The notes beneath the pieces are model-generated. The model saw nothing but the letters and a program-made list of their open reading frames with translations. It searched no databases and had not been told where the DNA came from. Both the position numbers and the translations under genes were made by a program. A DNA stretch of 64,000 nt from a virus (taxonomy: Duplodnaviria > Heunggongvirae > Uroviricota > Caudoviricetes). The stretch lies in IMG/VR virus record IMGVR_UViG_3300009502_000023, positions 37,731 through 101,730 of that record. The stretch is one strand, 5' to 3'. Positions 3,314 through 40,276 of this stretch are shown here, one piece after another (position 1 is the first letter of the stretch; each line of letters starts with the position of its first letter).

Positions 3314-4537
3314 ATGAAGAAGTTCGATCTTAGAAAGTTGTTGGATGGTATCACTTATGAACCGCAGTTGAATTTGATTGCGACGATGTTTAGTGATGTT
3401 GACAGATATAATCTTCCGGTCACTAAACATCTTTTCAATATCGATAATAAATATTACTTGCTTGCAGAAAATAATTATGCTAAGGTTGTTGTTGGGCCTG
3501 ATTATAATTTTATCTTTCTAAAGCAAGATCGGTTTGGTTTGACTACTGGATTCTTTCAGAGATGGGGTAAGACAAAAGATGATAATCCAGATTTTGCACC
3601 CATTGGTCCAGAAATTCTTGATATTGAAATTAGTGTAAATGGTTGTCCGAATGCTTGTCCGTTCTGTTATAAGAATAACAAGAATGTTCCACCAACCAAT
3701 ATGACATTAGATACGTTTAAATCCATTATTAATAAAATGCCTCGAGTATTAACCCAAGTTGCTTTTGGTATTACTGGAGTCAAAACAAATCCTGATTTCC
3801 TTCCTATGATGAAGTATTGTCGTGAAGTTGGGATTCTTCCAAACTTTACATTGAGCGGAATTGATCTTGATGATACTATGGCAGATGAATTATCACAGGT
3901 TGCTGGTGCTCTTGCTGTGAGTGCTTATGCATCTGATAAGAATGTTTGCTATGATACTGTAAAGAAATTTACTGATCGAGGAATGAGTCAAGTTAATATT
4001 CATTTGATGGTCAGTCAACAGACATTGCCTTTTGTAAAAGAGGTTTTAGCTGATCGATTGACTGATCCACGACTCGAGAACATGCATGCAATTGTATTCC
4101 TTGGTGTTAAACCTAAAGGTCGAGCTAAGAATGAATATACTCCATTGACTCTTCAAGAGTATGGTGATATCGTTCAGTACTCATTGAAAGCAGGATTTAA
4201 TTTTGGATTTGATTCATGTTCAGCTCCAAAATTTGAATCTGTAATTAAAGATACTGCTATTGATATTGAACCAGTTATTAAAGATCAATTGATTGAGTCT
4301 AGTGAATCCTGTGAGAGTTCATTATTCTCAAGTTATATCAATACTGCTGGCGAGTATTGGCATTGTTCTTTTGCTGAGAATGAGGATGGTCAGAATTTTG
4401 TAGATGTTACCAAGGCAAAGGACTTCATTGTCGATGTCTGGTATTCTGATACAGTTAAGAAATTCAGAGAGAATTCAATCAATACAATGGTTGGTGGATG
4501 TCGTCGTTGTACAGTATTCCCATCGATCAACCCATAG
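3314..4537 (+). CDS. radical SAM enzyme, function unknown (possibly linked to nucleotide/7-deazaguanine modification)
   Basis: CPNACPFC = CxxxCxxC 4Fe-4S/AdoMet cluster motif near N-terminus; 407 aa. Confidence 0.6.
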   Translation: MKKFDLRKLLDGITYEPQLNLIATMFSDVDRYNLPVTKHLFNIDNKYYLLAENNYAKVVVGPDYNFIFLKQDRFGLTTGFFQRWGKTKDDNPDFAPIGPEILDIEISVNGCPNACPFCYKNNKNVPPTNMTLDTFKSIINKMPRVLTQVAFGITGVKTNPDFLPMMKYCREVGILPNFTLSGIDLDDTMADELSQVAGALAVSAYASDKNVCYDTVKKFTDRGMSQVNIHLMVSQQTLPFVKEVLADRLTDPRLENMHAIVFLGVKPKGRAKNEYTPLTLQEYGDIVQYSLKAGFNFGFDSCSAPKFESVIKDTAIDIEPVIKDQLIESSESCESSLFSSYINTAGEYWHCSFAENEDGQNFVDVTKAKDFIVDVWYSDTVKKFRENSINTMVGGCRRCTVFPSINP

Positions 4538-6903: not shown

Positions 6904-6957
6904 TAAGTTCCTGTTGGAATTTAGAATCCAAGTAAAGAAGGTGTCGTAGTATAAATA

Positions 6958-7683
6958 TTACGATACTTTCTTTATTCCTTTTTTTAAGTCATCGCATATC
7001 AAAAATTCTTTAGTTAAAGAGTATTTACATATATGTAATGAATTTTGATACATACTGGAAAGATCGAAATTTATCTTGTTGTTCAATCTACCTTTTACAT
7101 TCACAGTAAATTGAATCTTTGATTTTGGATTGATTCTTGAAACGACTTGTTCGAGTTCGTGTTTCAATCCGGTTCTTAGTAAATCAATATTACTTCCATG
7201 TTTTAGGTGACCAATCAGATGAACACCTTTTGGACTAGTAATCAATGTTTCATAATAACTAGTTCCAAGATCGTCTATCTTATCAGTTTCTAATTCATGT
7301 TCTAAGATCTTCAAAGCATACTGACAATGTTTCATTGAAAGATTTGGTCCAACATCTATGTCTACAATCCAATACTTTGTAAGTTCTGGATGAGTAACAT
7401 ATACAACATTAGTTCTTCCTGTAATTAGTTTTTCAAAGTTAGAACTAGTTAGTTGTATTGAAGATCCTTTTTGATTTCTGATCATGACCGTTTGATCATC
7501 AATCTTCATTAGAAATGCAACGTTTCTTCCATTTATCCATTTTAGCATCTTGTCTTTTACTGATAAGTAGTACTCATAAATTTGTTTCTCGGTTAAACCA
7601 TGAGGATAGAATTTATTTTTAATAATTATATCAGATGGATGAGTTGGAAAAGATTCGTTTAAAAACGCATTAATAATTCTCAT
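6958..7683 (-). CDS. archaeo-eukaryotic primase-polymerase (LigD Pol-domain-like)
   Basis: N-terminal LTEKQIYEYY...GRNVAF resembles LigD-Pol N-terminus; motif I IVDIDV (DxD), motif II SPKGVHLIGH (SGxKGxH-like); only - strand gene in a 60-kb + block. Confidence 0.6.
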   Translation of the reverse strand: MRIINAFLNESFPTHPSDIIIKNKFYPHGLTEKQIYEYYLSVKDKMLKWINGRNVAFLMKIDDQTVMIRNQKGSSIQLTSSNFEKLITGRTNVVYVTHPELTKYWIVDIDVGPNLSMKHCQYALKILEHELETDKIDDLGTSYYETLITSPKGVHLIGHLKHGSNIDLLRTGLKHELEQVVSRINPKSKIQFTVNVKGRLNNKINFDLSSMYQNSLHICKYSLTKEFLICDDLKKGIKKVS

Positions 7684-7907: not shown

Positions 7908-8126
7908 ATGTCAAAAATAAGTGTGATATATGACTCATCTCAAGAAATTGAACAGATTGTTAAAGAAGTAGAACAGCATATAGATATGAAGAAAGATGAA
8001 TCAGAAATATATGCTCTCGTTCAAAAAATCATTCAGACAGCTTTTGAAGAAGGTAGAAAATTTCAGAAGCAAATATCAATTAATTCATCCGTTAAAGACA
8101 GTATTATGAGCAAGACAGATATATGA
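7908..8126 (+). CDS. hypothetical protein
   Basis: ORF 72 aa with AGGAGG RBS. Confidence 0.4.
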   Translation: MSKISVIYDSSQEIEQIVKEVEQHIDMKKDESEIYALVQKIIQTAFEEGRKFQKQISINSSVKDSIMSKTDI

Positions 8127-9001
8127 ATACCGAAGATCCAGTAATCTTAGACAAGATTAAGAAATTATTAAATTTAGCAAATCCCAATAACAATGGATCC
8201 GAAGGTGAGATACAGTCGGCATTTACTTTGGCTCAGAAACTTCTCAAAAAACATCATTTGACGATGAGTCAAATAACAGCATATGATGACGATACAACAT
8301 CTGAAGCTGGTATGTTTGATGTTATAGAATCTGAAGCAGCAAAGTTTGCAGCTAATATCTTACCCCGATGGATGGAAACGTTATTAAGATCTGTTAATAC
8401 TATTACTGAAACGAAAACTCTGATTAAGCGATCATCAAGAACAGGTAGTACTTATGGAAACTTAAGTATTGTATTTGTTGGTGACACTATAGATGTTGAA
8501 ACTTCAGTAGAATTATTTCTCTTTCTAAAAGACTCGGTGTCTAAGTTATCTACTGCTCATTCAAACGAGTATGAAAAGAAACACAAATATTGGCGTTCAT
8601 TTGCTGATGGTTGTGCAACTAAAATCTTAGAACGAGCTCAAGAAGTAGAAAAGAAATATTCTGATAAATTCGAAAGAACTCTTGCTGATTTGGATATTTC
8701 TAATAGGGAATTAACTGAAGAAGATGAAGAGGAGCTAGAAGAGATAGATGATGAAATAGAAGATCAGATCAATTCTGAGAATTTCAGTATAGAGTTATAC
8801 AAGAAGTACGAAGATTGTAAAGTTAATAAGATTCTGGAGTACATTGAAAACATCGATGCAGAAGAAGAGAAATCTTCATCTAAAACTGCACGAACAGAGG
8901 TTAACTCATATCAAATGGGTCAAACCGCCGGCGAAACAATACCGCTGTCTATCTCTAAGAAGATAGCTACGGGGAACAAGAGGAAAACTCACCATGCCTA
9001 A
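8123..9001 (+). CDS. hypothetical protein with highly acidic C-terminal region
   Basis: ORF 292 aa, ATGA overlap with upstream gene. Confidence 0.5.
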   Translation: MNTEDPVILDKIKKLLNLANPNNNGSEGEIQSAFTLAQKLLKKHHLTMSQITAYDDDTTSEAGMFDVIESEAAKFAANILPRWMETLLRSVNTITETKTLIKRSSRTGSTYGNLSIVFVGDTIDVETSVELFLFLKDSVSKLSTAHSNEYEKKHKYWRSFADGCATKILERAQEVEKKYSDKFERTLADLDISNRELTEEDEEELEEIDDEIEDQINSENFSIELYKKYEDCKVNKILEYIENIDAEEEKSSSKTARTEVNSYQMGQTAGETIPLSISKKIATGNKRKTHHA

Positions 9002-9641
9002 GTCCACTGATGCTGATGTTCTGAAGTCTCTGGTTGGAAATACCACTGGTCTCACTGCTACTGCAATTGCACATATTCTTGGTCATTCTAAAGCAGCAGC
9101 CATTAAGGATCTGCTTACTTCGATGGTATCTAGCGGCGCACTCGAGATTGATTCGTCTGGTCGTTATGAAGTCTATAAGACAGCTGCTAAGAAGGTAGCT
9201 AAAGTTGAGCCCAAGAAAGAAGTTGTAACTGTAGTTGATTCTGAGAAGGTTGCTGAGAAACTTCCTGCTGCTCAGGATCGTGATCTGCAGGGTTATCATG
9301 TTGATACGGTTAAGATCAAGGACAAGATGATGAAGCGCGTCACCACTCCGGATGGTAAGAAGATTCGTATGGAGAATGATGAGAAGCTCTTCGTCGTAAA
9401 TAACGAACCCAAGTATGTCGTAAAGACTGCTGAAGACGTTATTACTTGCATTCGTAAGTATGCCCTTGATAATAATCTGACTGTGTTCACGGTTGACGAT
9501 ATCAAGCAGAATCGCAAAATCTCAAACGATAAAGATGTGATGATCAAGGATGATCATATTATCTTCATGACGATCAAGAAACATAATAAGGCTGCTACCA
9601 AGAAACATGTTTCTAAGTATTCGTTCTATACGATTCTCTAA
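8994..9641 (+). CDS. GC-rich, codon-distinct gene; putative winged-helix DNA-binding protein with K/E-rich linker
   Basis: ORF 215 aa; local GC and CTG/AAG/GCT codon usage clearly above neighbours; N-term predicted HTH-like; followed by strong terminator. Confidence 0.55.
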   Translation: MPKSTDADVLKSLVGNTTGLTATAIAHILGHSKAAAIKDLLTSMVSSGALEIDSSGRYEVYKTAAKKVAKVEPKKEVVTVVDSEKVAEKLPAAQDRDLQGYHVDTVKIKDKMMKRVTTPDGKKIRMENDEKLFVVNNEPKYVVKTAEDVITCIRKYALDNNLTVFTVDDIKQNRKISNDKDVMIKDDHIIFMTIKKHNKAATKKHVSKYSFYTIL

Positions 9642-9674
9642 TCTAAGAATTAATTAACATTAATTAAATAGCTG

Positions 9675-9716
9675 TGGGTCCGGTTATGCACCAGGTATAA
9701 CCGGACCCATTTTAAA
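9675..9716 (+). terminator. rho-independent terminator
   Basis: 13-bp perfect stem TGGGTCCGGTTAT/ATAACCGGACCCA, 9-nt loop, then TTTTAAA. Confidence 0.6.
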
Positions 9717-9730
9717 TCCAGAGGAAAACC

Positions 9731-11548
9731 ATGTTAGACGTACCTGTTGGTCCAAAACTTATTTTTCATCTTCGTAAAGTATTAACTGAAAATCCTGAAT
9801 TGACAAATCTTTTACCATCGTTTGGTTGTGGTCGTATTGCTTCTAATGGAACTTATTATCCAACACACAAAATTAAGTTTAGAACTGATCCGGCCAATGA
9901 TGCTTTCACATACGATTATAATTCTGAACCAACTATCAGAATCTGTGATCTGTCACCTAAACATATCACCAATAAAAGTATTTACAGATCTTCTAATAAT
10001 AGTTCTGATGATGTTAGTAAATATTATCATAGGAATATGTATAATTCTAATTGGACCGGTCAATATAACGCAAAGAGACTCGGTATCAATGTAGATCGTA
10101 GTATTAAAGTTAAGGGATACGTACTTAATTTTAATGATATGCGAACTGCTATCAAAGAGAGTTTCTCCAACTACAGATATGATTCTATTATTGATTGTTT
10201 GTGGGAAATTTATTATATTGGTGAAAGAAATTGTGTTTTGGGTATTTCTGCTAATACTGGTATTCTGTATATCAGAAAGCAGACACTTTCTAAAATGTTA
10301 TTATCAAACAACGACGAAGCAATTCAGCGAGGTCTTAAGAATCTGTTGAAATGTTTTAATTTTACATTGCAGAAATATGAAAGTCTTAATATTCGAAATT
10401 ATGTTGAAGATATGACTCAACTAATTGAGAATGATGTAATTAATAAAGTCGTTAATACAAATGAGTTCTCTAGACGCTATTATGATAATGCTGGCCCCAA
10501 CGCAGCAAGTCAGAAAAGATTTATGGAAGATATTAAACACCACATTGATGAATCGATCAAAACATCTCTTCGTGGTTCTATCTTTGGTGTGAATGAGAAA
10601 TATTCATACTCAGATATTCTGAGTAATATTATCAATAAGCACAAAACTATCGAAAAAAGTATTTTTGATGATGGTTTTGCTAAAGGAATGCGTATTGGAA
10701 TGAAACTGGAAATGATTGGCTGGGTTCCGGTCAATATTAACTTTCCAGATAATTCAAACTCTACTGATGTGTGGTGGGCGAATGATGTCAATATTGTTCC
10801 TTCTACTTTTATCTTTAGGGAAGAACGTTATGAAATTCCTGAGGATAAAAGAAAAGCAAAAATTACAAAATTGTTCATCAACCAGAATGGTATAATGAGA
10901 TGTCAGGGCGAACATCCCAATGTAAGCGGAAGTAAAGTTTGCATGGGTGATCTCACCATTGATTACTCAAAGTCTGTTTCTGACATTCAAGATGCTTTGG
11001 ATAGAGCCAAATCATTATTGGATATTATCAATTATGATTCTGCATATTCTAGTAGAGATCGAGACGAATTACTTAAGTGTTCTACTAAAGTTCGTTCTCT
11101 ATCTACTCGTGATATAGAAAATGGTATTCCCAAAAAGACAGAACTTAAAATTAAAGAAGTTAATTTCTCTGATAATGATGATGAGGAAGAAGTTGAAGAG
11201 ACTGCTACTGCAGTGGATGATTCTGAAACAGTAATTGTTCATAATGAGGAAGTTATTGCTTCTCTTATTGATGATATTGAACCAGATGATCCAAATCGGC
11301 AGGGTGCTCGTCAACAAGTTCCTAACCATGTAGAAGACGATGAGAATGAAGAACAGATTCAAGTTCAAACTCACGTAATATCAAACAATGTAGACACGAT
11401 TGAACAAATTCGAGTTGTAGAAGAAACTGGTGAAAGACGTCCGGTTGTATTCTATACAACATCTGGTGATGCTGTAATAATTCAAGCTCCATCAGAACAC
11501 GCTGTTGATAGTCATGAATTAGTACTTGGAGATATCAATCTACTGTAG
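9731..11548 (+). CDS. large hypothetical protein containing a UBC/E2-like active-site motif (HPNVSGSKVCMGDL) and acidic C-terminus
   Basis: ORF 605 aa; HPN-x6-C(M)GDL at about nt 10912-10950 matches E2 HPNxxxxGx(I/V)C(L/M)xxL signature; immediately upstream of E1 and JAB genes. Confidence 0.5.
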   Translation: MLDVPVGPKLIFHLRKVLTENPELTNLLPSFGCGRIASNGTYYPTHKIKFRTDPANDAFTYDYNSEPTIRICDLSPKHITNKSIYRSSNNSSDDVSKYYHRNMYNSNWTGQYNAKRLGINVDRSIKVKGYVLNFNDMRTAIKESFSNYRYDSIIDCLWEIYYIGERNCVLGISANTGILYIRKQTLSKMLLSNNDEAIQRGLKNLLKCFNFTLQKYESLNIRNYVEDMTQLIENDVINKVVNTNEFSRRYYDNAGPNAASQKRFMEDIKHHIDESIKTSLRGSIFGVNEKYSYSDILSNIINKHKTIEKSIFDDGFAKGMRIGMKLEMIGWVPVNINFPDNSNSTDVWWANDVNIVPSTFIFREERYEIPEDKRKAKITKLFINQNGIMRCQGEHPNVSGSKVCMGDLTIDYSKSVSDIQDALDRAKSLLDIINYDSAYSSRDRDELLKCSTKVRSLSTRDIENGIPKKTELKIKEVNFSDNDDEEEVEETATAVDDSETVIVHNEEVIASLIDDIEPDDPNRQGARQQVPNHVEDDENEEQIQVQTHVISNNVDTIEQIRVVEETGERRPVVFYTTSGDAVIIQAPSEHAVDSHELVLGDINLL

Positions 11549-11560
11549 GGTTAAAACAAC

Positions 11561-12313
11561 ATGAGTAATAGTAATCTAGAACGAGAGATGTTTAATCGGC
11601 AGCAAGATATCGAATTGTACAAATTCGAGTTTGCTATCATAATTGGTGTTGGTGGAATTGGGAGTTGGGTTGCTTTGAACATGGCATTAACAGGTAATGT
11701 TACTAACATGTTTTTAATTGACCCAGATACGATTGAAAGCAGTAATTTGAATAGAACACCATTCAGATTCTGTGATATCGGTCAACCCAAGGTTGTCGCT
11801 CTAAAGTATTTGATTTTAGAACGACGAGCTGTAAATATTGAAATCTATCAGCAAAAAACAAATGCTGCATTAGCTACAGAAATTGCAGATAAGACTATTA
11901 AGGTTGATCGGTATGCATCTCGAACTAATAAGAAACAAATATCAAACAATGGTGTGATTGTTGATTGTCGAGATGATGTCTATACAGACATGTATGATTT
12001 TCCATACAAGTATTATAAAGTGGGTTATGATGGTTTATCGATAACGATTGATGGAAATCCCAGGAACACAGCAGTCTGGGGTCGAGCCAATGGTTATCGT
12101 CATACGCCATCATTTATTTGTCCTGCACAACTTGCAGCTAACTTGGTAGTTACTGATATTCTGACAATGAAAGATTCTGATGAAACAAATGAGAATGAAA
12201 CAGATACTGTTGAAAATGTAAACGCATTTGATAATAGTGGAAGATTAAACAAAGTCGTAACCTTTGATGTTAAAGATCTCGTCGAGATGATTTACCACAA
12301 GGTTAATCCGTAG
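11561..12313 (+). CDS. ThiF/MoeB/E1-family adenylyltransferase
   Basis: IIIGVGGIGSWVALNMA Rossmann GxGxxG; DPDTIESSNLNRTPF (D.D.VE.SNLNRQ-like); DCRDD (DCTDN-like) motif. Confidence 0.7.
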   Translation: MSNSNLEREMFNRQQDIELYKFEFAIIIGVGGIGSWVALNMALTGNVTNMFLIDPDTIESSNLNRTPFRFCDIGQPKVVALKYLILERRAVNIEIYQQKTNAALATEIADKTIKVDRYASRTNKKQISNNGVIVDCRDDVYTDMYDFPYKYYKVGYDGLSITIDGNPRNTAVWGRANGYRHTPSFICPAQLAANLVVTDILTMKDSDETNENETDTVENVNAFDNSGRLNKVVTFDVKDLVEMIYHKVNP

Positions 12314-12330
12314 TCACAAGGAAATAGTTA

Positions 12331-13341
12331 ATGAGCGTGAAAGAACTTAGCTTTGAAGACGACGGAGAAGATTCTGTCGGCACAGAAGTGAAAGAAGGAA
12401 TACAAACTGTTAAATCAGGAGCAGAAAAGGGAACTTGGATTAACCAAAAACGAGTTCCCCTGACTCTTCCGTTAGTTTGTTTGATTCCCCATAAAATATT
12501 AATTGTAATTCGAAGTGTTGAAAAAATGATCATTAGTTCTGGAATGGGAACAATGGAAGTTGGAATGTTCCTTAACGGAAAAATGAATGAACAGGGTAAG
12601 TTGGTTCTGTCTGAAGATTTTTATATTCCCCAGCAAAAGGTTGGTGGGGCAAGTATTGATTTTCAGGAAGAACCACCTGATCTAAAATGGAATGGTGTAA
12701 TTCATCGTCACCCTGATGGATGTAAGAGCTTCAGTGGTACCGATGGAACTTATATTAATGCAAATTTTGAGTTTTCATTGTTGTATGTATGTAATGAAAT
12801 TACCCTTGGCATCTATAATTTTGACAATAACGGATTCAGATTTCAGGTTCCTTTAAAGACCGAGATCATGTATCCGATTATGGAACTGCAAGATAAGGAT
12901 GCAATCTTAGCTAAGATTACTAAGGTTCAGTATCCTTCTTCTACATCATCTGTGGTGGTTCAGCGTGGTTATGGTGGCGTACACCAGAATCATACTGGAA
13001 ATCCTCTTTGGTCAGACCGGAGAGATTTTAGACACCGAACATTACTTGCGGAAGATAATCAAATGGACTTTGATTCTTTCTTCCAACAAGAGGATAATCG
13101 AATTGTTGGGGATGATACTATCATCACTGATGATACGATTGAAGATGATAATGAAGAACTCTGCATTTGTAAAAAGTGTGGAGAAGTTCAGTGGATTGAG
13201 GACTATCCTCATTGCTGTGAAAGCTGTGAAGAGTTCCTTTCTGAAGATCAGGTTGAACTTGTCTCCACTCAGGATGTTCGTTGTTATGATGAACAGACCA
13301 GAGATAAGATTATACTGCTTCTTCAAGAGAAACAGGCATAG
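12331..13341 (+). CDS. JAB/MPN (JAMM) metalloprotease with C-terminal acidic region and zinc ribbon
   Basis: HRHPDGCKSFSGTD = HxHx7Sx2D JAMM motif at about 12703-12744; C-term CICKKCGEV...CCESCEEF. Confidence 0.65.
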   Translation: MSVKELSFEDDGEDSVGTEVKEGIQTVKSGAEKGTWINQKRVPLTLPLVCLIPHKILIVIRSVEKMIISSGMGTMEVGMFLNGKMNEQGKLVLSEDFYIPQQKVGGASIDFQEEPPDLKWNGVIHRHPDGCKSFSGTDGTYINANFEFSLLYVCNEITLGIYNFDNNGFRFQVPLKTEIMYPIMELQDKDAILAKITKVQYPSSTSSVVVQRGYGGVHQNHTGNPLWSDRRDFRHRTLLAEDNQMDFDSFFQQEDNRIVGDDTIITDDTIEDDNEELCICKKCGEVQWIEDYPHCCESCEEFLSEDQVELVSTQDVRCYDEQTRDKIILLLQEKQA

Positions 13342-13348
13342 ATACAAA

Positions 13349-13385
13349 CTTCTACCATCAGAACAAAATAAACTGATGGTAGAAG
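13349..13385 (+). terminator. stem-loop (13-bp stem) after JAB gene, possible terminator/processing site before tRNA
   Basis: CTTCTACCATCAG/CTGATGGTAGAAG inverted repeat; no clear T-run. Confidence 0.35.
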
Positions 13386-13390
13386 CAGTT

Positions 13391-13464
13391 GCACGCATAG
13401 TTCAATGGTAGAACTGGAGATTTCCAATCTTCAAATGTGGGTTCAATTCCCACTGCGTGCTCCA
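13391..13464 (+). tRNA. tRNA-Gly (anticodon UCC), CCA encoded
   Basis: manual fold: acceptor GCACGCA/TGCGTGC, D-arm GTTC-AATGGTA-GAAC, anticodon stem GGAGA/TCTTC with loop TTTCCAA, T-arm GTGGG-TTCAATT-CCCAC, discriminator T, CCA. Confidence 0.85.
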
Positions 13465-13481
13465 ATTAAACCGGTGTATGA

Positions 13482-14552
13482 ATGAATAAGTTATGTGAAT
13501 GCGGTTGCGGAAAAGAAGTAATTAGTGATAAACATAGATTTATCCATGGACACAGTACCAAAGGAAGAAAAGATCTTTATATTAAACGAGCAAAAAATTT
13601 TAAAGAAAAACACGGAGTGGAATATCCGGGCCAACTGGAGAGCGTTCAGAATAAATCTAAACAAACATGTTTAAAAAAATATGGTAAAGAATATACATTC
13701 CAAACCAAATGTGTTAAAGATAAGATTAAGAAAAAATGCTTAGAGAACCTGGGTGTAGAAAATCCAAGTCAATCAGAAATTATTAAAGAGAAAAAAATAC
13801 AAACATATCTAGAAAGTCTAAATGTAGAAAACCCAAGTCAATCAGATATCATTAAAAAGAAAAAAAGTCAAACAAATTTAGAACATTGTGGTTTTGAAAA
13901 TCCAATGCAATCACAAAATGTTCAAGAAAAATCAAAACAGACAAATATAAATCATCGCGGTGTTGAATATCCGATGCAATCAGATGATGTTCAAGAAAAA
14001 TCAAAACAGACAAATATAAAGAATCGGGGCGTTGAATATCCATTTCGGTCAAAAGAAGTTCAGGAAAAATATAAACGGACATGTGTATATAACTATGGTG
14101 TTGATAATTTTGCAAGGACACCACAATTTAAAGAAATGGCTCGTATCAATAGTATCAGAATGATAGAAAATCAATTAGTTAATGGTGAACCAATGTGTCC
14201 GTTTATTGGTGATCATGAAAGACTATTTTTAAATGAACTTCAACACCACGTAACATATAAAATCATTCGAAATGATATTTCTTTTAGATATATTAAAGGT
14301 AGATTTCCCGATGGTCATATCTCAGAATTAAAACTTTTTATTCAGTTTGATGAGAGAGTTCATTTTGAAAATAAAGAAATGACCATATATAAAGAAGATG
14401 ATACAGATTGTACTCTTCAATTAGCATCTCTTGGTTATATTGTTTTTAGAGTATCTGAAAAACAATGGAATGAAAATAAAGAACAAGTTATCAATCAATT
14501 TAAAGGACTACTAGAATGTCTAAGAGAGCAGCAGTTGGCGACGCCCATTTAA
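13482..14552 (+). CDS. homing-endonuclease-like protein (CxCGCG Zn-ribbon + repeats + PD-(D/E)xK-like FPDGHISELK C-terminus)
   Basis: MNKLCECGCGKEV...GHS N-terminus shared with 5 paralogs; repeated K.Q.YLE.LGVENP.QS modules; 37-nt overlap with sbcD start. Confidence 0.6.
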   Translation: MNKLCECGCGKEVISDKHRFIHGHSTKGRKDLYIKRAKNFKEKHGVEYPGQLESVQNKSKQTCLKKYGKEYTFQTKCVKDKIKKKCLENLGVENPSQSEIIKEKKIQTYLESLNVENPSQSDIIKKKKSQTNLEHCGFENPMQSQNVQEKSKQTNINHRGVEYPMQSDDVQEKSKQTNIKNRGVEYPFRSKEVQEKYKRTCVYNYGVDNFARTPQFKEMARINSIRMIENQLVNGEPMCPFIGDHERLFLNELQHHVTYKIIRNDISFRYIKGRFPDGHISELKLFIQFDERVHFENKEMTIYKEDDTDCTLQLASLGYIVFRVSEKQWNENKEQVINQFKGLLECLREQQLATPI

Positions 14553-15544
14553 GCGGATTTCAATCTGATACGTTGGATAAAAAAGGTTTACCTAAACGTT
14601 TAGGTTTCATTATAAAGTCATTAGACTTTATAGTTGATTTTTGCAATCAAAAGAATATTTTTGATTTTGATTTTTTAGGCGATCTTGTAAATGATAAAAG
14701 TATTATTTATACCGTAGCACAAGATGCTTTTAAAGATTTTCTTGTTAGACGGAAGAATTGCAGATTCAGAATCATTAGTGGTAACCATGATCTATCCTCT
14801 ACTGGTGATTTGCAAAAAAGTGCAATATCTGTATTCTCGGAATATCCTAACGTGAAATGTTTTGTTGGCGGACCGGAAGTAATTGATAATATCACTTACA
14901 TTCCTTTCACCGAGAAATTTTTAGAAACAATTAAAATATCACCACCATCTGATATTTTAATCACACATCTTGGCTTGAATGAAGCACATCTTCAATCCGG
15001 GTTGTCTAAAGTTGATAAGATTTCAATTAAAGATTTATCTAAATTTAAATTAGCTTTGATGGGGCACTATCATCGCCCACAGGATTTTAGCAATGGAACT
15101 ACTCATGTGTGGTACGCGGGATCTTTAACGAATAAAGATTGGAACGATAAGAATGAGCAGAAAAGATTTCTTATCTATGATACTGAAACACTAGAAGTAG
15201 AATCTGTTCCTATTGATTGTGGTATTCCTCAATTTATTGAGTTGACTATCAATAATGAAACTGATAAGATAGAAATCTTAAAGCAAGCAGAAATTGCAAA
15301 AAATAATGGAAACAATGTTCGTATTAAAAATAAATCAGAAACAGTAATTAAAGATGAAGTATCTGGTGGCGTTTTAGTTCTTGAACAGCATGATGTGGAT
15401 ATTACCGATAGAGGTATTACCATATCAATGACCAAAGAAGAACAACTTAAGAAATATCTTTCGATTAAAGAAATTCCTGAAGTTGAATGCCCAGAATATT
15501 TGTCTCTGATTGCAAAGTATGATTTATTACACAAGGATGAATAA
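14516..15544 (+). CDS. sbcD: SbcD/Mre11-like nuclease (T4 gp47-like)
   Basis: motifs GDAHL, GDLVND, GNHD, GHYH of Mre11 phosphoesterase; directly upstream of SbcC-like gene. Confidence 0.8.
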   Translation: MSKRAAVGDAHLSGFQSDTLDKKGLPKRLGFIIKSLDFIVDFCNQKNIFDFDFLGDLVNDKSIIYTVAQDAFKDFLVRRKNCRFRIISGNHDLSSTGDLQKSAISVFSEYPNVKCFVGGPEVIDNITYIPFTEKFLETIKISPPSDILITHLGLNEAHLQSGLSKVDKISIKDLSKFKLALMGHYHRPQDFSNGTTHVWYAGSLTNKDWNDKNEQKRFLIYDTETLEVESVPIDCGIPQFIELTINNETDKIEILKQAEIAKNNGNNVRIKNKSETVIKDEVSGGVLVLEQHDVDITDRGITISMTKEEQLKKYLSIKEIPEVECPEYLSLIAKYDLLHKDE

Positions 15545-18911: not shown

Positions 18912-19328
18912 ATGACCCCACAAAAGACTCCCGTTCGAATCAACATCCAGCAATCTAATCAAAAGACAATTATTACATATGATATGAAAGTTGATAACAA
19001 TATTCGATCAATCGCAAGACGCGGACATGATATTGCTAAAACATTTAGAAGTATTGGTATTGTGTTTAAAAGAATCATTCCTGCATCTACTGATATATCG
19101 GTAAGAAAACAATTCAAGCTTCCTGTAGATTCTGATTTGATTTGTGTCGAACTGAAATACAACACTGACAAATCTGATTCAGATAAACTACTATTGATTA
19201 ATGATATTAAAGATCAACTTATGAATTTAAATTCTTATTCTGTGGTTAATGAAGGTATTTACAAATATGATTTATCAACACAGGTTTATAGATTATTACT
19301 AAAGATTAATGAAAATGTATCAAAATGA
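18912..19328 (+). CDS. hypothetical protein
   Basis: ORF 138 aa with AAGGAG RBS. Confidence 0.4.
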   Translation: MTPQKTPVRINIQQSNQKTIITYDMKVDNNIRSIARRGHDIAKTFRSIGIVFKRIIPASTDISVRKQFKLPVDSDLICVELKYNTDKSDSDKLLLINDIKDQLMNLNSYSVVNEGIYKYDLSTQVYRLLLKINENVSK

Positions 19329-19867
19329 ACAATGAATTGATAATCGTTGGATGTGGAACTATAGGCGCATCATTGTCATTAAATCTAGCAAGAAAAAAAT
19401 TGATTTCTAAATTAACAATTTATGATTTTGATGTTGTTAGTTTTGGTTCTGAGAAATCAATTTATCCTTTTAATTCGTGCGCTTCTGGGTTATCAAAAGT
19501 TGAAAATATAAAATTTAGATGTAAAAAAATTAATCCTGATTTAGATATTGTTGTAAATGAAGAGCGAGTATTAAAACCTATAGTTACAGATCAATTTATT
19601 ATTGATTGTCGTGATTGTAAAACACCCAATTTAAATTCTAAAATTCGATTATCACTAGATGGTAGTATTCTGTATATTGATAGTAGAAAAAAGATTCCAG
19701 AAACTAAAAATTATTATAGATACTATTATAGCAGAAATCCAGAATTTATAGAAACAGCAAATCAAATTATCATTAATTATTTGGTTAACGATGAATATAC
19801 ATGTAATCAGTTGAGAGTATATAATACTGAAACGTCTGAATATCATATCTTGCCAACGGAGAATTGA
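19325..19867 (+). CDS. short ThiF/E1-like adenylyltransferase paralog
   Basis: IIVGCGTIGASLSLNLA GxGxxG; LTIYDFDVV; DCRDC motif, paralogous to DCRDD of the 11561 gene. Confidence 0.5.
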   Translation: MNNELIIVGCGTIGASLSLNLARKKLISKLTIYDFDVVSFGSEKSIYPFNSCASGLSKVENIKFRCKKINPDLDIVVNEERVLKPIVTDQFIIDCRDCKTPNLNSKIRLSLDGSILYIDSRKKIPETKNYYRYYYSRNPEFIETANQIIINYLVNDEYTCNQLRVYNTETSEYHILPTEN

Positions 19868-20148
19868 AAATGCCAGAATGTCTAATAAAAAATAGATTTA
19901 TTAACTTACAGAAATTCTCTACTGATTTGATTACTCATACGGGAAATAATTTAGAAAAACAAACATTTGTGGTTGGTATTCCATCTAGAGAGAGTATTAC
20001 CATTAAAGCTAATAGTATTGATGATTTAGTTATCAAACTTGCAAAATTATCAAGATGTCTGCCACACCATAGTTGTTTCATGACCTATACATTCGAAGCA
20101 AATTTGAATGTTAATCTTACAATTCTTCCGGTGACAGATGCAGCATGA
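19864..20148 (+). CDS. hypothetical 94-aa protein between E1-like and E2-like genes (candidate Ubl partner, unproven)
   Basis: size and position only; ends ...PVTDAA not GG. Confidence 0.35.
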   Translation: MKMPECLIKNRFINLQKFSTDLITHTGNNLEKQTFVVGIPSRESITIKANSIDDLVIKLAKLSRCLPHHSCFMTYTFEANLNVNLTILPVTDAA

Positions 20149-20770
20149 TCAAGAGATTAAGAAAATTCTGTACCAGCATAATTATGATTTTTCAAATATA
20201 AATTTCAAAACCAACTTAAATAATACTATCGATCAAATCGAACATGAACTAATTTACAAATCGATTGGTTCAGAATCTGCTGAAAAGATCATATGCGATT
20301 TGCGTAAACTTAAACAATTTTCAGAACGGAACGTTTTAAAAAATGGAATTCTTAAAGAAGAATTGGATCAATTAAAAAACAATCAGTATACAATAGAAAA
20401 TGATTCTGTTACTTGCCATAAATTTATTGGCTGTAAATCAATCAGAGAATCCAGAACTATTCATCAGTTGAACCAAAATCAGATGAAACAGTTGGTTGAT
20501 CATGGTTATGGAATAAAATCTTTTAAAGTATTGATAGATATACAAATAAAAGATTTGACATGCTGTGGCAAACATCCAAATTTGAGTAAAACTAATACCT
20601 TCTGTTGGGATGAGAATTTAAGGGGTCTTGATTTTACAAATGATAATCTAGGTATAATTGAGGGAATGCTATCTTCATTTAATTTAGATTCTTGTTTTAT
20701 ACAACCGGATGAACGACAATTTTTAATTGACATAGCTCGATCGGGAAATCAAAAATGTTTTCATTTATAG
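20138..20770 (+). CDS. hypothetical protein with UBC/E2-like motif HPNLSKTNTFCWDENL
   Basis: HPN-x7-C-x-D spacing identical to E2 HPNINSNGSICLDIL; adjacent to E1-like gene. Confidence 0.4.
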   Translation: MQHDQEIKKILYQHNYDFSNINFKTNLNNTIDQIEHELIYKSIGSESAEKIICDLRKLKQFSERNVLKNGILKEELDQLKNNQYTIENDSVTCHKFIGCKSIRESRTIHQLNQNQMKQLVDHGYGIKSFKVLIDIQIKDLTCCGKHPNLSKTNTFCWDENLRGLDFTNDNLGIIEGMLSSFNLDSCFIQPDERQFLIDIARSGNQKCFHL

Positions 20771-20794: not shown

Positions 20795-21322
20795 ATGACA
20801 AAAAAGAAAAAAAATCCATTTACTTATATATGTAACGATTTATTACCCGGTACTGATTATTCATTTCATCATTTGATTGAATTGGGTGTTTTATACGGAT
20901 ATACCTATGATGAAGTGATGAAAGCATTATTTACAGAAATTCAAAAGAAGAATCCTAGAATTGTTTTGGGATTTAACAAGAATGCTTTCTTGAATCCAAA
21001 AAATAGATCTAATAAAAAAGTAATTGAACCTATAAAAACAGAAACAGAAATAATTGCTGAAGCAGTTATCAAGAAAAATAAAGAATTTATTCAGAAATGG
21101 ATAGAGACTGAATTTGATAAAAAGCTAGAATCACTGGTTCAGAAATATGTGGTATCTGAGTTTAAGGAAGAAGTTCTTCCGGTTCTTATCGACCGCATCG
21201 ATGGTAAGTTTAAAAACATTCAAGAATCACATACAAAATCTATTAAGGTAGAAGTTATTCAAATTCTATCTGATATGATTATCAAAGCAGCTCAAGAGGA
21301 GATTCCAAGTAATGAAGATTAA
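20795..21322 (+). CDS. hypothetical protein
   Basis: ORF 175 aa. Confidence 0.45.
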   Translation: MTKKKKNPFTYICNDLLPGTDYSFHHLIELGVLYGYTYDEVMKALFTEIQKKNPRIVLGFNKNAFLNPKNRSNKKVIEPIKTETEIIAEAVIKKNKEFIQKWIETEFDKKLESLVQKYVVSEFKEEVLPVLIDRIDGKFKNIQESHTKSIKVEVIQILSDMIIKAAQEEIPSNED

Positions 21323-33148: not shown

Positions 33149-34225
33149 ATGATCGAGTGCAAAGAATGTGGAAAAGAATGTATTTCTGAATTTCATTTAG
33201 CTAAACATTTAGCAAGATATCCAATTAATCATTGTACTCCACAAGAGTATTATGATAAGTATATATTAAAAGATGATAATAATAAAAAGTGTCACCGTCG
33301 AACTTGTTTAAATCAGACATCTTTTAATGGTATTATTCATGGATATAATAAATACTGTTCACCTAGTTGTTGTAATAAAGAAAAAGCAACAGATCCTGAA
33401 TATAGATTGAAAAATAAAAATGCTCAGATTATAGCACAGAATAAACCAGAAGTAAAACAGAGAAGTAGAGATACAGCAAGTGCACAGTGGAAAGATCCCG
33501 ATGTAAGAAGACGAACATTATCTACGTATCAGCAAACTTTAAACAAACCAGGTATAAGAGAAAGATATTCAGAGGCATCAAAAAATAGATGGACTAATTC
33601 TGAATATAGAAATAAATATATACAATCAATGCAGAAACATTGGAAAAGTGAAGATTATAAAAAAGAATTTAAAAAAGCACATAACACAGAAGAAAGTAAA
33701 TTAAATCATTCGGTTGCAAGTAAGAAACTGTGGCAGAATCAACTATTTAGAGATAGGATGATTTCTTTTCTAAATAGTTCAGATCATAAAAAGTATATGA
33801 GTGATTTAGTTACTGTTAAAATGTTAAATGGAGAATGGAATCCTGGACATGGTTGCTATCATTGGGGGTACTGCTATTCTGAAAAGAATAACTCATTCAT
33901 GTTTCATAGATCAGGTACAGAACTCACTGCTTTTCAATTGTTGGATATAAACCCTTTAGTAAAATCATTCGATTATGAACCTTTAAGAATTAGTTATATT
34001 GATAAAGATGGAAATACAAAGTTTTGTATTCCTGATTTGATGATACATTATATAGATAATAGTTTGGAGTTGGTTGAAATAAAACCTGATGTTTTTGTCA
34101 ATGATGAAGACATTCAATTAAAACTTAAAGCTATGTCGGAGTATTGTATCAAAATTGGTATTAAATTTAGAGTGTGGTTAGAAAGTGAAATAGTAAACAG
34201 AAACACGAAACAGGAGATAGTTATC
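33149..34225 (+). CDS. homing-endonuclease-like protein (CKECGKEC Zn-ribbon, basic repeats, PD-(D/E)xK-like PDL...ELVEIKP) lacking its own stop codon
   Basis: ORF reads through in frame into the GC-rich gene starting 34226; AGAATAAATTAAAAGG motif and AAAGGAG RBS upstream. Confidence 0.5.
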
Positions 34226-40223: not shown

Positions 40224-40276
40224 TCAAAGTTTAAGTTAATAGTAATCAGTTATTGGAAACAAACAAAGAGGTACAA

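What the first reader, a model, noticed from the sequence alone, without database searches (positions are those of the whole stretch)
9731..13341. Contiguous phage-encoded E2-like / E1 / JAB operon, a ubiquitin-like conjugation module
Three adjacent genes carry the hallmark motifs of a Ubl conjugation machinery.
- A 605-aa protein carries a UBC-type active site, HPNVSGSKVCMGDL. Compare the E2 consensus HPN.....G.IC(L/M)D.L.
- A ThiF/MoeB/E1 adenylyltransferase carries GxGxxG, D.D..E.SNLNR and DCRDD.
- A JAMM/JAB metalloprotease carries HxHx7Sx2D plus a Zn ribbon.
Such triads are known from bacterial operons (Iyer-Burroughs-Aravind) and from CBASS Cap2/Cap3, Bil and Bub defence systems. A phage-borne copy could modify virion or host proteins, or counter a host Ubl-based defence. 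No separate Ubl gene is obvious here; it may be fused or encoded elsewhere.
Basis: partly seen in the sequence, partly recalled or inferred. Interest (0 to 1): 0.8.

Follow-up and report, generated by a model that had tools for sequence, protein, structure and literature searches.

The report
Phage-encoded ubiquitin-like protein conjugation module
An uncultured large bacteriophage carries what looks like a complete ubiquitin-style protein-tagging kit (tag, activating enzyme, carrier enzyme and trimming protease) plus a second smaller copy, machinery so far described in bacteria as anti-phage defence, not in phages.

Summary
Three adjacent + strand genes sit at the stated coordinates, and every quoted motif is present and conserved.

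- The 250-aa protein is a ThiF/E1 adenylyltransferase, above Pfam's cutoff.
- The 336-aa protein has an invariant JAMM motif plus a Zn ribbon.
- The 605-aa protein matches no curated model. Its ~135-residue core (317-455) keeps a near-invariant HPN-x6-Cys. A PDB-wide profile search returns almost only E2 enzymes (best E 0.013). hhalign against canonical E2s gives 93.6% probability. Fold searches on a weak full-length model were inconclusive.

It has a winged helix plus a C-terminal domain predicted as beta-grasp-like. Most homologues stop right after an invariant KHNKAA; a minority carry short unrelated tails.

The order Ubl / E2-like / E1 / JAB recurs in divergent metagenomic phage contigs with different flanks.

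A second module lies at 19325-20770: ThiF2, a 94-aa protein ending PVTDAA, and a 210-aa E2-like paralogue.

No relative was found in 50,697 deposited phage genomes, and no description in the literature searched. Target and biological role are unknown.

Verdict: new variant of a known kind; interest 0.72.

The parts
8994..9641 (+). Candidate ubiquitin-like modifier (Ubl1, 215 aa). It has an N-terminal winged helix (res ~6-63), a disordered linker, a small beta unit (102-126) and a beta-grasp-like C-terminal domain (131-196). The tail is HNKAA-201, followed by a 14-residue extension, TKKHVSKYSFYTIL (nt 9597-9638).
   Evidence: - 21 of 29 homologues stop directly after the invariant K196-H197-N198-K199-A200-A201; 8 carry short non-homologous tails.
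- Divergent loci end KHNKAA*, or KHNKAGR* in L011.
- AF2 model, pLDDT 77: bb-a-bbbb topology, with the tail beyond 201 disordered.
- The winged helix is confirmed by Foldseek: ArsR/SmtB and Z-alpha, prob 1.0.
- It is always immediately upstream of the E2-like gene.
9674..9710 (+). 16-bp GC-rich hairpin followed by a U-rich stretch, in the 89-nt gap between the Ubl1 gene and the E2-like gene. Candidate attenuator or partial terminator.
   Evidence: RNA fold gives dG -30.6 kcal/mol and z -5.6, with 0 of 200 shuffles as stable. Hairpins of different sequence followed by T-runs sit at the same place in L004 and L012.
9731..11548 (+). E2-like protein (605 aa). It has an N-terminal extension of unknown function (1-316) and a UBC-like core (317-455, nt 10679-11095) with HPN395-397 and the putative catalytic Cys404 (nt 10940-10942). 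An acidic disordered linker follows, then a conserved C-terminal tail (GERRP...LGDxNLL).
   Evidence: - Motif conservation.
- Core profile against the PDB returns E2s almost exclusively, best E 0.013.
- hhalign gives 93.6%, E 2e-7; controls.
- Model residues 320-450 have pLDDT 70-86, in the order helix, four to five strands, HPN, Cys, two helices.
- Standalone 135-aa forms of the core exist.
11561..12313 (+). Minimal E1-like ThiF/MoeB-type adenylyltransferase (250 aa), with no conserved catalytic cysteine
   Evidence: - Pfam ThiF: E 9.5e-17, 61.4 bits against a cutoff of 28.1.
- PADLOC Cap2 'E1-E2' models match over their E1 part only.
- NCBIfam: ThiF, MoeB and SAMP-E1.
- Invariant GxGxxG, D54, D56, K77 and DCRDD. 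C187 is replaced by Ala or Ile in orthologues.
12331..13341 (+). JAMM/JAB metallopeptidase (core ~res 60-190, motif nt 12703-12744) with a C-terminal C4 Zn ribbon (nt 13168-13227)
   Evidence: - Invariant E76, H125-x-H127-x7-S135-x2-D138 and C280/C283/C296/C299.
- 16 of 20 homologues hit Pfam Prok-JAB, best E 1.4e-4. The window copy scores E 0.025, below the cutoff.
- The only PDB sequence hit of the domain profile is the JAB part of Citrobacter BubCD, E 0.83, not significant.
- JGI names one homologue 'proteasome lid subunit RPN8/RPN11'.
19325..19867 (+). Second ThiF-like protein (ThiF2, 180 aa). It keeps GxGxxG and DCRD but lacks the SNLNR motif.
   Evidence: Pfam ThiF E 1.8e-9; alignment; conserved in L001 and L013.
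19864..20148 (+). Second small Ubl candidate (94 aa), ending ...LPVTDAA at the stop codon
   Evidence: Three orthologues, down to ~30% identity, all end PVTDAA*. It has no detectable sequence similarity to Ubl1 or to ubiquitin/ThiS, so it is a candidate by size, position and terminus only.
20138..20770 (+). Short paralogue of the E2-like core (210 aa), with GKHPNLSKTNTFC and FNLDS
   Evidence: The E2-like core profile hits only this ORF (E 2.8e-6, profile positions 11-131 of 139) and the 605-aa protein, among all 470 six-frame ORFs of the window. It is conserved in L001 and L013.
7908..9001 (+). Two upstream genes (72 aa, and a 292-aa DUF2786/DUF7168 protein). They are syntenic with the module only in close relatives and are probably not core components.
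   Evidence: Pfam and PHROG matches. Present in L001, L004 and L006 but replaced by other genes in L009 and L012.

Best explanation
This is a phage-encoded ubiquitin-like protein conjugation cascade.

Proposed mechanism:
1. The upstream 215-aa protein is the modifier.
2. Where it carries a C-terminal extension, as in this window, the JAB metallopeptidase trims it to expose ...KHNKAA-201.
3. The small ThiF-type E1 adenylates the terminal alanine with ATP.
4. The E1 has no conserved catalytic cysteine, so the acyl-adenylate is attacked directly by Cys404 of the E2-like protein, forming a thioester.
5. The E2-like protein passes the modifier to a lysine on a target. Its 316-residue N-terminal extension may select that target.
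6. The JAB enzyme can probably also reverse the conjugation.

Because the modifier carries a winged-helix domain, conjugation would tether a nucleic-acid-binding module to its targets. A second, smaller cascade (ThiF2, a 94-aa protein ending in Ala-Ala, and a 210-aa E2-like paralogue) lies 6 kb downstream.

Shown here: the gene content, the conserved catalytic motifs, the conserved four-gene order, and the C-terminal pattern of the modifier.
Inferred: every chemical step, the direct E1-to-E2 transfer, the trimming role of JAB, and the existence and identity of targets.
For: E1:
- Pfam ThiF above its cutoff, and invariant nucleotide-binding residues.

JAB:
- Invariant JAMM motif and Zn ribbon; 16 of 20 homologues hit Prok-JAB.

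E2-like:
- HPN-x6-C is at least 90% conserved in 100 members at ~15-40% identity.
- 59 of the top 60 PDB profile hits are E2s.
- hhalign gives 93.6%, E 2e-7, over 89 columns with HPN and Cys aligned; the family's LL..INYDSAY falls on the E2 LL..PNPDDP.
- 40 column shuffles give a best E of 0.033.
- The secondary-structure order is UBC-like in the pLDDT 70-86 region.
- 11 of 44 weak Foldseek hits are the UBC-fold TSG101 UEV domain.

Modifier:
- Invariant KHNKAA, with the stop codon directly after it in 21 of 29 homologues and heterogeneous tails in 8.
- KHNKAG+R in the most divergent locus.
- Beta-grasp-like topology with a 5-residue exposed tail.
- A conserved hairpin plus T-run separates its gene from the enzyme genes, as expected if the substrate is made in excess.

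Linkage:
- E2-like followed by ThiF in 13 of 13 contexts.
- JAB next in 7 of 7 that extend far enough and were tested.
- The Ubl candidate upstream in 8 of 8 with upstream sequence. Flanking genes differ between these contexts.

Independent repeat of the same logic:
- Module 2.
Against: - No curated E2 model (Pfam UQ_con or Prok-E2, NCBIfam, PADLOC, PHROGs) matches the 605-aa protein.
- With the 14-residue motif masked, the hhalign signal falls to P 0.05-0.075, so homology beyond the motif is only marginal.
- The beta-grasp of the modifier rests on predicted topology only. Its fold search was swamped by winged-helix hits, and profiles of ubiquitin, ThiS and MoaD give nothing.
- The modifier ends in Ala-Ala, not the Gly-Gly of classical Ubls.
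- 23 of 29 homologues weakly hit the Pfam intein splicing model.
- No target, E3 or phenotype is known.
- The close relatives are syntenic phages, so part of the gene-order conservation is shared ancestry.
Confidence: 0.6

Rival explanations
1. The machinery is a real conjugation or deconjugation system, but its purpose is counter-defence. It would interfere with host Ubl-based immunity (Bil, CBASS type II or Bub), for example by stripping host conjugates with the JAB enzyme, or by loading a decoy modifier onto the host's targets or enzymes.
For: The known bacterial E1/E2/JAB systems act in anti-phage immunity (abstracts). The E1 matches PADLOC Cap2 models over their E1 part. The module sits among early, replication and transcription genes rather than virion genes.
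Against: A pure antagonist would need only the JAB enzyme. Yet the full set of modifier, E1 and E2-like is conserved, and module 2 has no JAB at all. The components are very distant from the host-system models: no PADLOC hit for the E2-like or JAB proteins.
Confidence: 0.15
2. A non-conjugating adenylation pathway. The ThiF enzyme activates the C-terminus of the small protein as a sulfur carrier (as in ThiS/MoaD, CysO-Mec+ or QbsCDE) or for another acyl transfer, feeding nucleoside or DNA modification. The HPN-Cys protein would be a persulfide or acyl relay rather than an E2.
For: - The best NCBIfam matches of the E1 are ThiF and MoeB.
- The E1 lacks an E1-type catalytic Cys.
- Sulfur-carrier systems are known that combine JAB, a ThiS-like protein and an E1 (PMC1779556).
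- 7-deazaguanine pathway genes (PTPS, radical SAM, Gat-QueC) lie near the module in several phages.
Against: - Sulfur carriers end in Gly-Gly; this family ends in Ala-Ala.
- There is no rhodanese, cysteine desulfurase or sulfur-acceptor enzyme in the conserved block.
- The HPN-Cys core resembles E2s specifically.
- The modifier is a 200-aa protein with a DNA-binding-type domain, unlike the small dedicated carriers.
- The adjacency to the queuosine-type genes is not conserved.
Confidence: 0.1
3. The upstream 215-aa protein is not the modifier. It would be a winged-helix regulator with a degenerate Hint/intein-like autoprocessing domain that cuts after the conserved His-Asn. The E1/E2-like/JAB enzymes would act on some other substrate encoded elsewhere.
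For: 23 of 29 homologues hit Pfam Intein_splicing, best E 1.6e-4. The family ends ...HN-KAA, and inteins end in HN. hhalign against three inteins gives P about 0.01 over 40 columns. JGI names one member 'predicted transcriptional regulator'.
Against: - The similarity covers only residues ~99-139. It lacks the block-A nucleophile and the TxxH motif, and it does not include the terminal HN.
- All scores are far below Pfam's 35.8-bit cutoff.
- The region is too short for a Hint domain and contains a 14-residue helix.
- Cleavage after Asn would not explain why KAA is invariant, or why the ORF usually stops right after it.
- No other Ubl candidate is linked to module 1.
Confidence: 0.08
4. The HPN...Cys signature in the 605-aa family is convergent. 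The protein would not have a UBC fold and would be an unrelated partner of the ThiF enzyme.
For: With the motif masked, the profile similarity is not significant. No significant structural match was found, and no curated E2 model matches.
Against: The alignment register outside the motif is collinear with the E2 strands and helix alpha2. The predicted secondary-structure order is UBC-like. Standalone forms are E2-sized at 135 aa. Linkage to E1 and JAB is strict.
Confidence: 0.07

Closest known systems
Bacterial E1-like / E2-like / JAB / Ub-like operons predicted by Iyer, Burroughs and Aravind 2006 (PMC1779556)
   Same: The same four functional parts sit in one gene cluster: a ThiF-type E1, a UBC-like protein with HPN and Cys, a JAB peptidase and a small modifier. 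The distribution is sporadic and associated with mobile elements.
   Different: - This one is encoded by a lytic-type large phage, not a bacterium.
- None of the Pfam Prok-E2 or Multi_ubiq models built from those operons matches at or above its cutoff.
- The modifier is fused to a winged helix and ends in Ala-Ala.
- The E2-like core sits inside a 600-aa protein.
Bil (bacterial ISG15-like, BilABCD) anti-phage system (own knowledge: Millman 2022, Hor 2024; mentioned results)
   Same: Four separate genes for Ubl, E2, JAB deubiquitinase and E1. Bil conjugates a Ubl to a protein target.
   Different: Bil is a host defence that tags phage tail proteins; here the phage owns the system. No PADLOC hit was found for the E2-like or JAB proteins. 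The terminus is Ala-Ala, the E1 lacks a conserved catalytic Cys, and there is a second module without a JAB.
CBASS type II Cap2 (E1-E2 fusion) and Cap3 (JAB)
   Same: The ThiF domain matches PADLOC Cap2 'E1-E2' models at E down to 5e-12. In CBASS the conjugated C-terminus belongs to a larger functional protein and can end in Ala or Gly (own knowledge). That resembles a 200-aa modifier ending in Ala-Ala.
   Different: E1 and E2 are separate genes, and the matches cover only the E1 part of Cap2. No CD-NTase or effector gene lies in the neighbourhood.
Bub (bacterial ubiquitination-like) pathway, BubCD peptidase-E1 fusion (PMC11601596)
   Same: The E1 lacks a catalytic cysteine (section heading), as this phage E1 appears to. 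A peptidase processes the Ubl precursor. BubCD's JAB part is the only PDB sequence touched by the phage JAB profile (not significant).
   Different: Bub works through oxyester (serine) intermediates and has a serine protease, BubE (abstract). The phage E2-like protein has a near-invariant cysteine, and JAB and E1 are separate proteins.
Lambda/T1 phage tail assembly proteins TAPI (Ubl) and TAPK (JAB + NlpC/P60) (PMC1779556)
   Same: The only phage-borne Ubl-plus-JAB pairing found in the literature searched.
   Different: That pairing has no E1 or E2, sits in the tail-assembly cluster, and its Ubl ends in a conserved Gly. The present module has E1 and E2-like enzymes and lies among replication and transcription genes.

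Membership tests
UBC / E2 superfamily | HPN motif followed about 7-8 residues later by the catalytic Cys | tested here: met
   HPNVSGSKVC is at residues 395-404. H, P, N and C are at least 90% conserved in 100 members. The spacing is one residue shorter than in UbcH5.
UBC / E2 superfamily | Match to curated E2 profiles (Pfam UQ_con, Prok-E2_A-E; NCBIfam) | tested here: not met
   No E2 family at E up to 1 in Pfam, and none in NCBIfam, PADLOC or PHROGs.
UBC / E2 superfamily | Profile-level similarity to solved E2 enzymes | tested here: met
   The core profile against 177,635 PDB sequences gives E2s for 59 of the top 60 hits, best E 0.013. hhalign gives 93.6%, E 2e-7. The signal is largely motif-driven: masked, P is 0.05-0.075.
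UBC / E2 superfamily | UBC fold (alpha1, four-strand meander, active-site loop, alpha2-alpha3) | tested here: inconclusive
UBC / E2 superfamily | Thioester with the Ubl on the catalytic Cys | not testable with these tools
   Needs biochemistry.
E1 / ThiF-MoeB adenylyltransferases | ThiF Rossmann domain above Pfam's gathering score, with the nucleotide-binding residues | tested here: met
   61.4 bits against a cutoff of 28.1. GxGxxG, D54, D56, SNLNR, K77 and DCRDD are conserved.
E1 / ThiF-MoeB adenylyltransferases | Catalytic cysteine that forms the E1~Ubl thioester (canonical E1s) | tested here: not met
   The only invariant Cys is C136, inside DCRDD. C187 is Ala or Ile in orthologues. There are no CxxC pairs.
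JAMM / JAB metallopeptidases | E ... HxHx7Sx2D metal-binding and catalytic motif | tested here: met
   E76, H125, H127, S135 and D138 are invariant in 20 homologues, and also in L015, L012 and L011.
JAMM / JAB metallopeptidases | Pfam Prok-JAB/JAB above the gathering score | tested here: not met
   The window copy scores 14.9 bits against a cutoff of 25. 16 of 20 homologues hit, best E 1.4e-4.
JAMM / JAB metallopeptidases | MPN fold | not tested
Ubiquitin-like (beta-grasp) modifiers | Beta-grasp fold | tested here: inconclusive
   The AF2 topology is bb-a-bbbb over residues 131-196, with ubiquitin-like dimensions, pLDDT ~80-88. The fold-search list was filled by winged-helix hits. Pfam Multi_ubiq scores E 0.13 only. 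hhalign against ubiquitin, ThiS and MoaD is negative.
Ubiquitin-like (beta-grasp) modifiers | Conserved exposed C-terminus, classically Gly-Gly, either at the stop codon or followed by a removable extension | tested here: inconclusive
   The pattern of an exact stop or variable tails is met: 21 against 8 of 29. The residues are Ala-Ala (Ala-Gly in L011), not Gly-Gly.
Ubiquitin-like (beta-grasp) modifiers | Gene linkage to E1, E2 and JAB | tested here: met
   Immediately upstream of the E2-like gene in 8 of 8 contexts with upstream sequence.
CBASS type II | CD-NTase and effector genes alongside a fused Cap2 (E1-E2) and Cap3 | tested here: not met
   The neighbours carry no such domains. E1 and E2-like are separate genes, and the PADLOC matches cover only the E1 part.
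Bub pathway | Serine (oxyester) active sites and the BubE serine protease | tested here: not met
   The active-site residue is a near-invariant Cys, and the peptidase is a JAMM type. Definition taken from PMC11601596.
Inteins / Hint domains (considered for the 215-aa protein) | Block A N-terminal nucleophile, block B TxxH, and a terminal HN followed by a nucleophile | tested here: not met
   Only a 40-50-residue internal stretch aligns, all hits are below the cutoff, no conserved Cys/Ser/Thr nucleophile or TxxH is present, and the HN is followed by Lys.

The most novel reading that the evidence does not exclude
Tailed phages of an uncultured T4-superfamily lineage encode their own complete ubiquitin-like conjugation pathways, in two paralogous cascades. 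These would covalently attach a winged-helix-bearing modifier, through a C-terminal Ala-Ala, to host or phage proteins during infection. That would be the first ubiquitination-like protein-tagging system owned by a virus of prokaryotes. It would use an E2 family so far absent from domain databases, and an E1 that hands the adenylate directly to the E2 cysteine.
Probability: 0.45. Interest if true: 0.85.

Novelty: new variant of a known kind. Interest (0 to 1): 0.72.

Why it matters
Ubiquitin-like conjugation in prokaryotes has recently emerged as an anti-phage weapon (CBASS Cap2/Cap3, Bil, Bub). A phage that carries its own E1, E2-like enzyme, deconjugase and modifier reverses that picture. 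It raises a testable question: do phages tag host or their own proteins to take over the cell, or to neutralise Ubl-based immunity?

The system also offers several things worth having:
- An E2 family (about 112 clusters among 1.84 billion representatives) that no curated profile library recognises.
- A modifier with an Ala-Ala terminus and a nucleic-acid-binding domain.
- A minimal 250-aa E1 without a catalytic cysteine.
- A 135-aa minimal E2-like form suited to structural work.

Lys199 precedes Ala200-Ala201, so trypsin should leave a diagnostic Ala-Ala remnant (+142.07 Da) on modified lysines. Target discovery by proteomics is therefore straightforward.

Tried and rejected
- **Deposited phage genomes:** megablast of 8000-15000, and tblastn of the E2-like and E1 proteins, against 50,697 genomes gave no match. 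No annotated relative could be used.
- **Full-length queries against the PDB:** single sequences and full-length profiles gave nothing useful for the E2-like protein or JAB; only Zn-ribbon hits appeared. Domain-only profiles were needed.
- **Foldseek on the Ubl1 model:** the list was filled by winged-helix proteins, so the C-terminal domain went untested.
- **Intein/Hint reading of Ubl1:** considered because of the Pfam hits and the terminal HN. Rejected as a functional intein.
- **hhalign of Ubl1 and Ubl2** against ubiquitin/NEDD8, ThiS/MoaD/SAMP/Urm1, and each other: negative.
- **The E2-like protein's own C-terminus (LGDxNLL) as the conjugated end:** rejected. It is not at a fixed distance from the stop codon, and it is absent from distant members.
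- **Related-locus scans:** The search for related loci with the 100-sequence alignment failed for lack of a conserved stretch. The metagenome scan for module 2 gave only two loci.
- **Sigma-70 promoter and terminator scan:** counts equal to shuffles, so uninformative.
The E2 set was verified against the PDB; the intein and Ubl sets were not verified.

Full report
**1. Observation**

All are on the + strand, with 12- and 17-nt gaps. Each quoted motif is present:
- HPNVSGSKVCMGDL at nt 10913-10954;
- GVGGIGS, DPDTIESSNLNR and DCRDD in the 250-aa protein;
- HRHPDGCKSFSGTD at nt 12703-12744;
- a C4 zinc ribbon at nt 13168-13227.

The window is a large tailed phage. It has a T4-type large terminase, unsplit beta' and beta RNA polymerase subunits, an NAD-dependent ligase, Mre11/Rad50, Gat-QueC and homing endonucleases. 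Its terminase is at most 29% identical to any deposited phage, and megablast finds nothing. Homologues sit on metagenomic contigs of up to 254 kb.

**2. The E1 and the JAB protein**

The 250-aa protein passes Pfam's ThiF threshold: 61.4 bits against 28.1, E 9.5e-17. It matches the E1 part of PADLOC Cap2 'E1-E2' models, and ThiF, MoeB and SAMP-E1 models in NCBIfam.

In an alignment with orthologues from seven loci, GxGxxG, D54, D56, K77 and D135-C-R-D138 are invariant. No cysteine outside DCRDD is conserved: C187 is Ala or Ile elsewhere, and there are no CxxC pairs. So this is a minimal MoeB/ThiF-sized E1 without the catalytic cysteine of canonical E1s. It shares that property with BubCD of the bacterial Bub pathway (PMC11601596).

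The 336-aa protein scores below Pfam's cutoff for Prok-JAB (E 0.025). However, 16 of 20 homologues hit that model, best E 1.4e-4. E76, H125, H127, S135, D138 and four zinc-ribbon cysteines are invariant. A domain-only profile finds a single PDB sequence, the JAB part of Citrobacter BubCD, aligned on the motif, but at a non-significant E of 0.83. I accept JAB on motif and family evidence. Its fold was not tested.

**3. The 605-aa protein**

No curated library recognises it: Pfam, PHROGs, PADLOC, NCBIfam and PDB sequences all fail. The word-indexed search found 8 homologues. A full HMMER scan of 1.84 billion representatives found 112 clusters.

Across 100 of them, at ~15-40% identity, the positions at least 90% conserved are G319, G330, K351, P357, H395, P396, N397, C404, G406, L430, N434 and S437. 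The widely shared part is a ~135-residue core (317-455). Some members are that core and nothing else, such as P0169 at 135 aa.

Tests of the E2 hypothesis:
- **(a) Targeted profile comparison.** hhalign of the core against nine canonical E2s gives 86-94% probability and E 5e-6 to 2e-7 over about 90 columns. HPN aligns on HPN and Cys on Cys, and the family's LL..INYDSAY falls on the E2 LL..PNPDDP at the end of helix alpha2.
- **(b) Controls.** 40 column shuffles give a best E of 0.033. A reversed template gives 0.36, and unrelated alignments 0.14-0.15. Masking the 14-residue motif drops the real comparison to P 0.05-0.075 in the same register. The signal is genuine, but it is mostly the motif.
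- **(c) Unbiased search.** The core profile against all 177,635 distinct PDB sequences returns E2 enzymes for 59 of the 60 best hits. The best E is a modest 0.013.

**4. The missing Ubl**

The gene immediately upstream (8994-9641, 215 aa) has 30 homologues. In 21 of the 29 aligned, the protein stops directly after an invariant K-H-N-K-A-A. Eight, including the window's copy, continue with short, mutually unrelated tails; the window has TKKHVSKYSFYTIL. Copies next to very divergent E2-like genes also end KHNKAA*, and the most divergent ends KHNKAGR*. An exposed, invariant C-terminus with optional removable extensions is characteristic of ubiquitin-like modifiers.

The AF2 model (pLDDT 77) shows:
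- a winged helix at residues 6-63, confirmed by Foldseek against ArsR/SmtB and Z-alpha domains at probability 1.0;
- a disordered linker and a three-strand unit;
- a bb-a-bbbb domain (131-196) of ubiquitin-like size, with a 5-residue tail;
- a disordered extension beyond residue 201.

The beta-grasp could not be confirmed. Winged-helix hits filled the fold-search list, and sequence profiles of ubiquitin, ThiS and MoaD are negative, as is usual for this fold.

A rival came up. 23 of 29 members weakly hit Pfam Intein_splicing (best E 1.6e-4), and inteins end in HN. The similarity covers only residues ~99-139. It lacks the nucleophile and the TxxH motif, and it does not reach the C-terminal HN. 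I rank it low.

A GC-rich hairpin followed by a U-run lies between this gene and the E2-like gene (9674-9710; dG -30.6 kcal/mol, z -5.6). Hairpins of different sequence occupy the same spot in L004 and L012. That fits a substrate gene expressed in excess over its enzymes, which is an inference.

**5. Linkage**

I examined 13 distinct contexts. They are the window, L001, L004, L006, L007, L008, L009, L011, L012, L015, L016, L017 and the contig of P0143. The E2-like members range down to profile E 1e-6 to 5e-4.
- A ThiF gene follows the E2-like gene in all 13.
- A JAB homologue follows ThiF in all 7 that extend far enough and were tested.
- The KHNKA(A/G) protein precedes the E2-like gene in all 8 with upstream sequence.

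Flanks differ. PTPS and a DEAD helicase lie upstream in L009 and L012. A QueC-intein lies downstream on the P0143 contig. A homing endonuclease is inserted between the Ubl and E2-like genes in L001. In L015 the E2-like protein is 135 aa, and the JAB zinc ribbon is a separate 51-aa ORF.

The 72-aa and DUF2786/DUF7168 genes upstream are syntenic only in close relatives, so they are probably not core parts.

**6. A second module**

Six kilobases downstream are three overlapping genes:
- ThiF2 (19325-19867; Pfam ThiF E 1.8e-9; lacks the SNLNR motif);
- a 94-aa protein ending ...PVTDAA at its stop codon;
- a 210-aa protein with GKHPNLSKTNTFC and FNLDS.

The E2-like core profile hits only two of the window's 470 six-frame ORFs: the 605-aa protein and this one, at E 2.8e-6 over nearly the whole core. 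The trio recurs in L001 and L013. The small protein always ends PVTDAA, even at ~30% identity.

This independent recurrence of a ThiF, a small protein ending in Ala-Ala and an HPN-Cys protein strengthens the conjugation reading. Ubl2 shows no sequence similarity to Ubl1, so it remains a candidate.

**7. Mechanism proposed**

JAB trims extended precursors to ...KHNKAA. The E1 adenylates Ala201. Cys404 of the E2-like protein attacks the adenylate directly, since the E1 has no conserved Cys, and passes the modifier to target lysines. The N-terminal 316 residues of the E2-like protein may provide substrate selection. JAB may also deconjugate.

All chemical steps are inferred. The gene content, the motifs, the linkage and the terminus pattern are shown. 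Confidence 0.6.

Rivals are a counter-defence role (0.15), a sulfur-carrier or other non-conjugating pathway (0.10), Ubl1 as a Hint-like regulator rather than the modifier (0.08) and a convergent HPN-Cys motif (0.07).

**8. Comparison and novelty**

The closest known systems are:
- the bacterial E1/E2/JAB/Ubl operons of Iyer et al. 2006 (PMC1779556);
- Bil;
- CBASS Cap2/Cap3;
- Bub (PMC11601596).

This module works like them but differs in several respects:
- it is phage-borne;
- its E2-like family is outside all curated models;
- its modifier carries a winged helix and ends in Ala-Ala;
- its E1 is minimal and lacks a conserved catalytic Cys;
- it is duplicated.

The only phage Ubl-JAB pairing found in the literature is the lambda/T1 TAPI-TAPK tail-assembly pair, which has no E1 or E2. 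The Aravind-lab survey of 224 jumbo phages never mentions JAB, ThiF or E1-like genes. Four further full-text searches found no description. The library is incomplete, so prior description cannot be excluded.

**Verdict:** new variant of a known kind; interest 0.72.

Noticed in passing
window 19325-20770: A second, JAB-less module: ThiF2 (lacking the SNLNR motif), a 94-aa protein ending PVTDAA*, and a 210-aa paralogue of the E2-like core. ThiF2 might be an independent E1 for Ubl2, or an inactive partner of the main E1 as in eukaryotic heterodimeric E1s. That point is speculation.
   Followed up: partly
window 9674-9710; L004 ~9945-9985; L012 ~4218-4258: A strong hairpin plus T-run lies right after the Ubl1 stop codon. 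Its position and structure are conserved but its sequence is not. It may act as an attenuator that sets the ratio of Ubl to enzymes.
   Followed up: partly
window 11429-11545 (E2-like residues ~567-605): After an acidic disordered linker, the 605-aa family has a conserved C-terminal tail (GERRPvvF ... LGDxNLL, with G600 and D601 invariant among close relatives). Its function is unknown; it may dock onto E1 or JAB. It is absent from distant, shorter members.
   Followed up: no
window 8994-9641 (residues ~92-149): 23 of 29 homologues of the Ubl candidate weakly match Pfam Intein_splicing, and the family ends in HN-KAA. This is unexplained; it may reflect a small Hint-like beta unit.
   Followed up: partly
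window 13391-13464: A tRNA-Gly (anticodon UCC) lies directly after the JAB gene.
   Followed up: no
window 13482-14552; L001 9061-9975 and 13928-14746: The window carries a DUF7487 plus Vsr/MTES_1575-like homing endonuclease here. In L001, a related DUF7487 endonuclease (9061-9975) is inserted between the Ubl gene and the E2-like gene, and a NUMOD3-type endonuclease gene (13928-14746) follows JAB. The module is evidently a hotspot for mobile endonucleases.
   Followed up: partly
window 21312-24161 and 25178-28465: Unsplit beta'-like (949 aa) and beta-like (1095 aa) multisubunit RNA polymerase genes, in a phage with a T4-type terminase.
   Followed up: no
window 3314-4537 and 44859-46709; L009/L012 PTPS genes: 7-deazaguanine-type pathway genes: a radical SAM/SPASM enzyme, a GATase-QueC fusion, and PTPS in relatives. 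They suggest modified DNA. On the contig of P0143, an intein-containing QueC lies directly after the module.
   Followed up: no
window 7908-9001: A 72-aa gene and a DUF2786/DUF7168 gene (phrog_421) are always upstream of the module in close relatives but not in distant ones.
   Followed up: partly
window 6958-7683 (- strand): The only minus-strand gene in this region. It has a weak LigD primase-polymerase match (E 3.3e-4) and is flanked by a 20-bp-stem hairpin at 6931-6976.
   Followed up: no
window 33149-34468 and 40253-41863: A TnsA-like endonuclease with an Hc1 histone-like tail, and an SPFH/Band-7 protein lying in a locally GC-rich patch (42% against ~32%).
   Followed up: no
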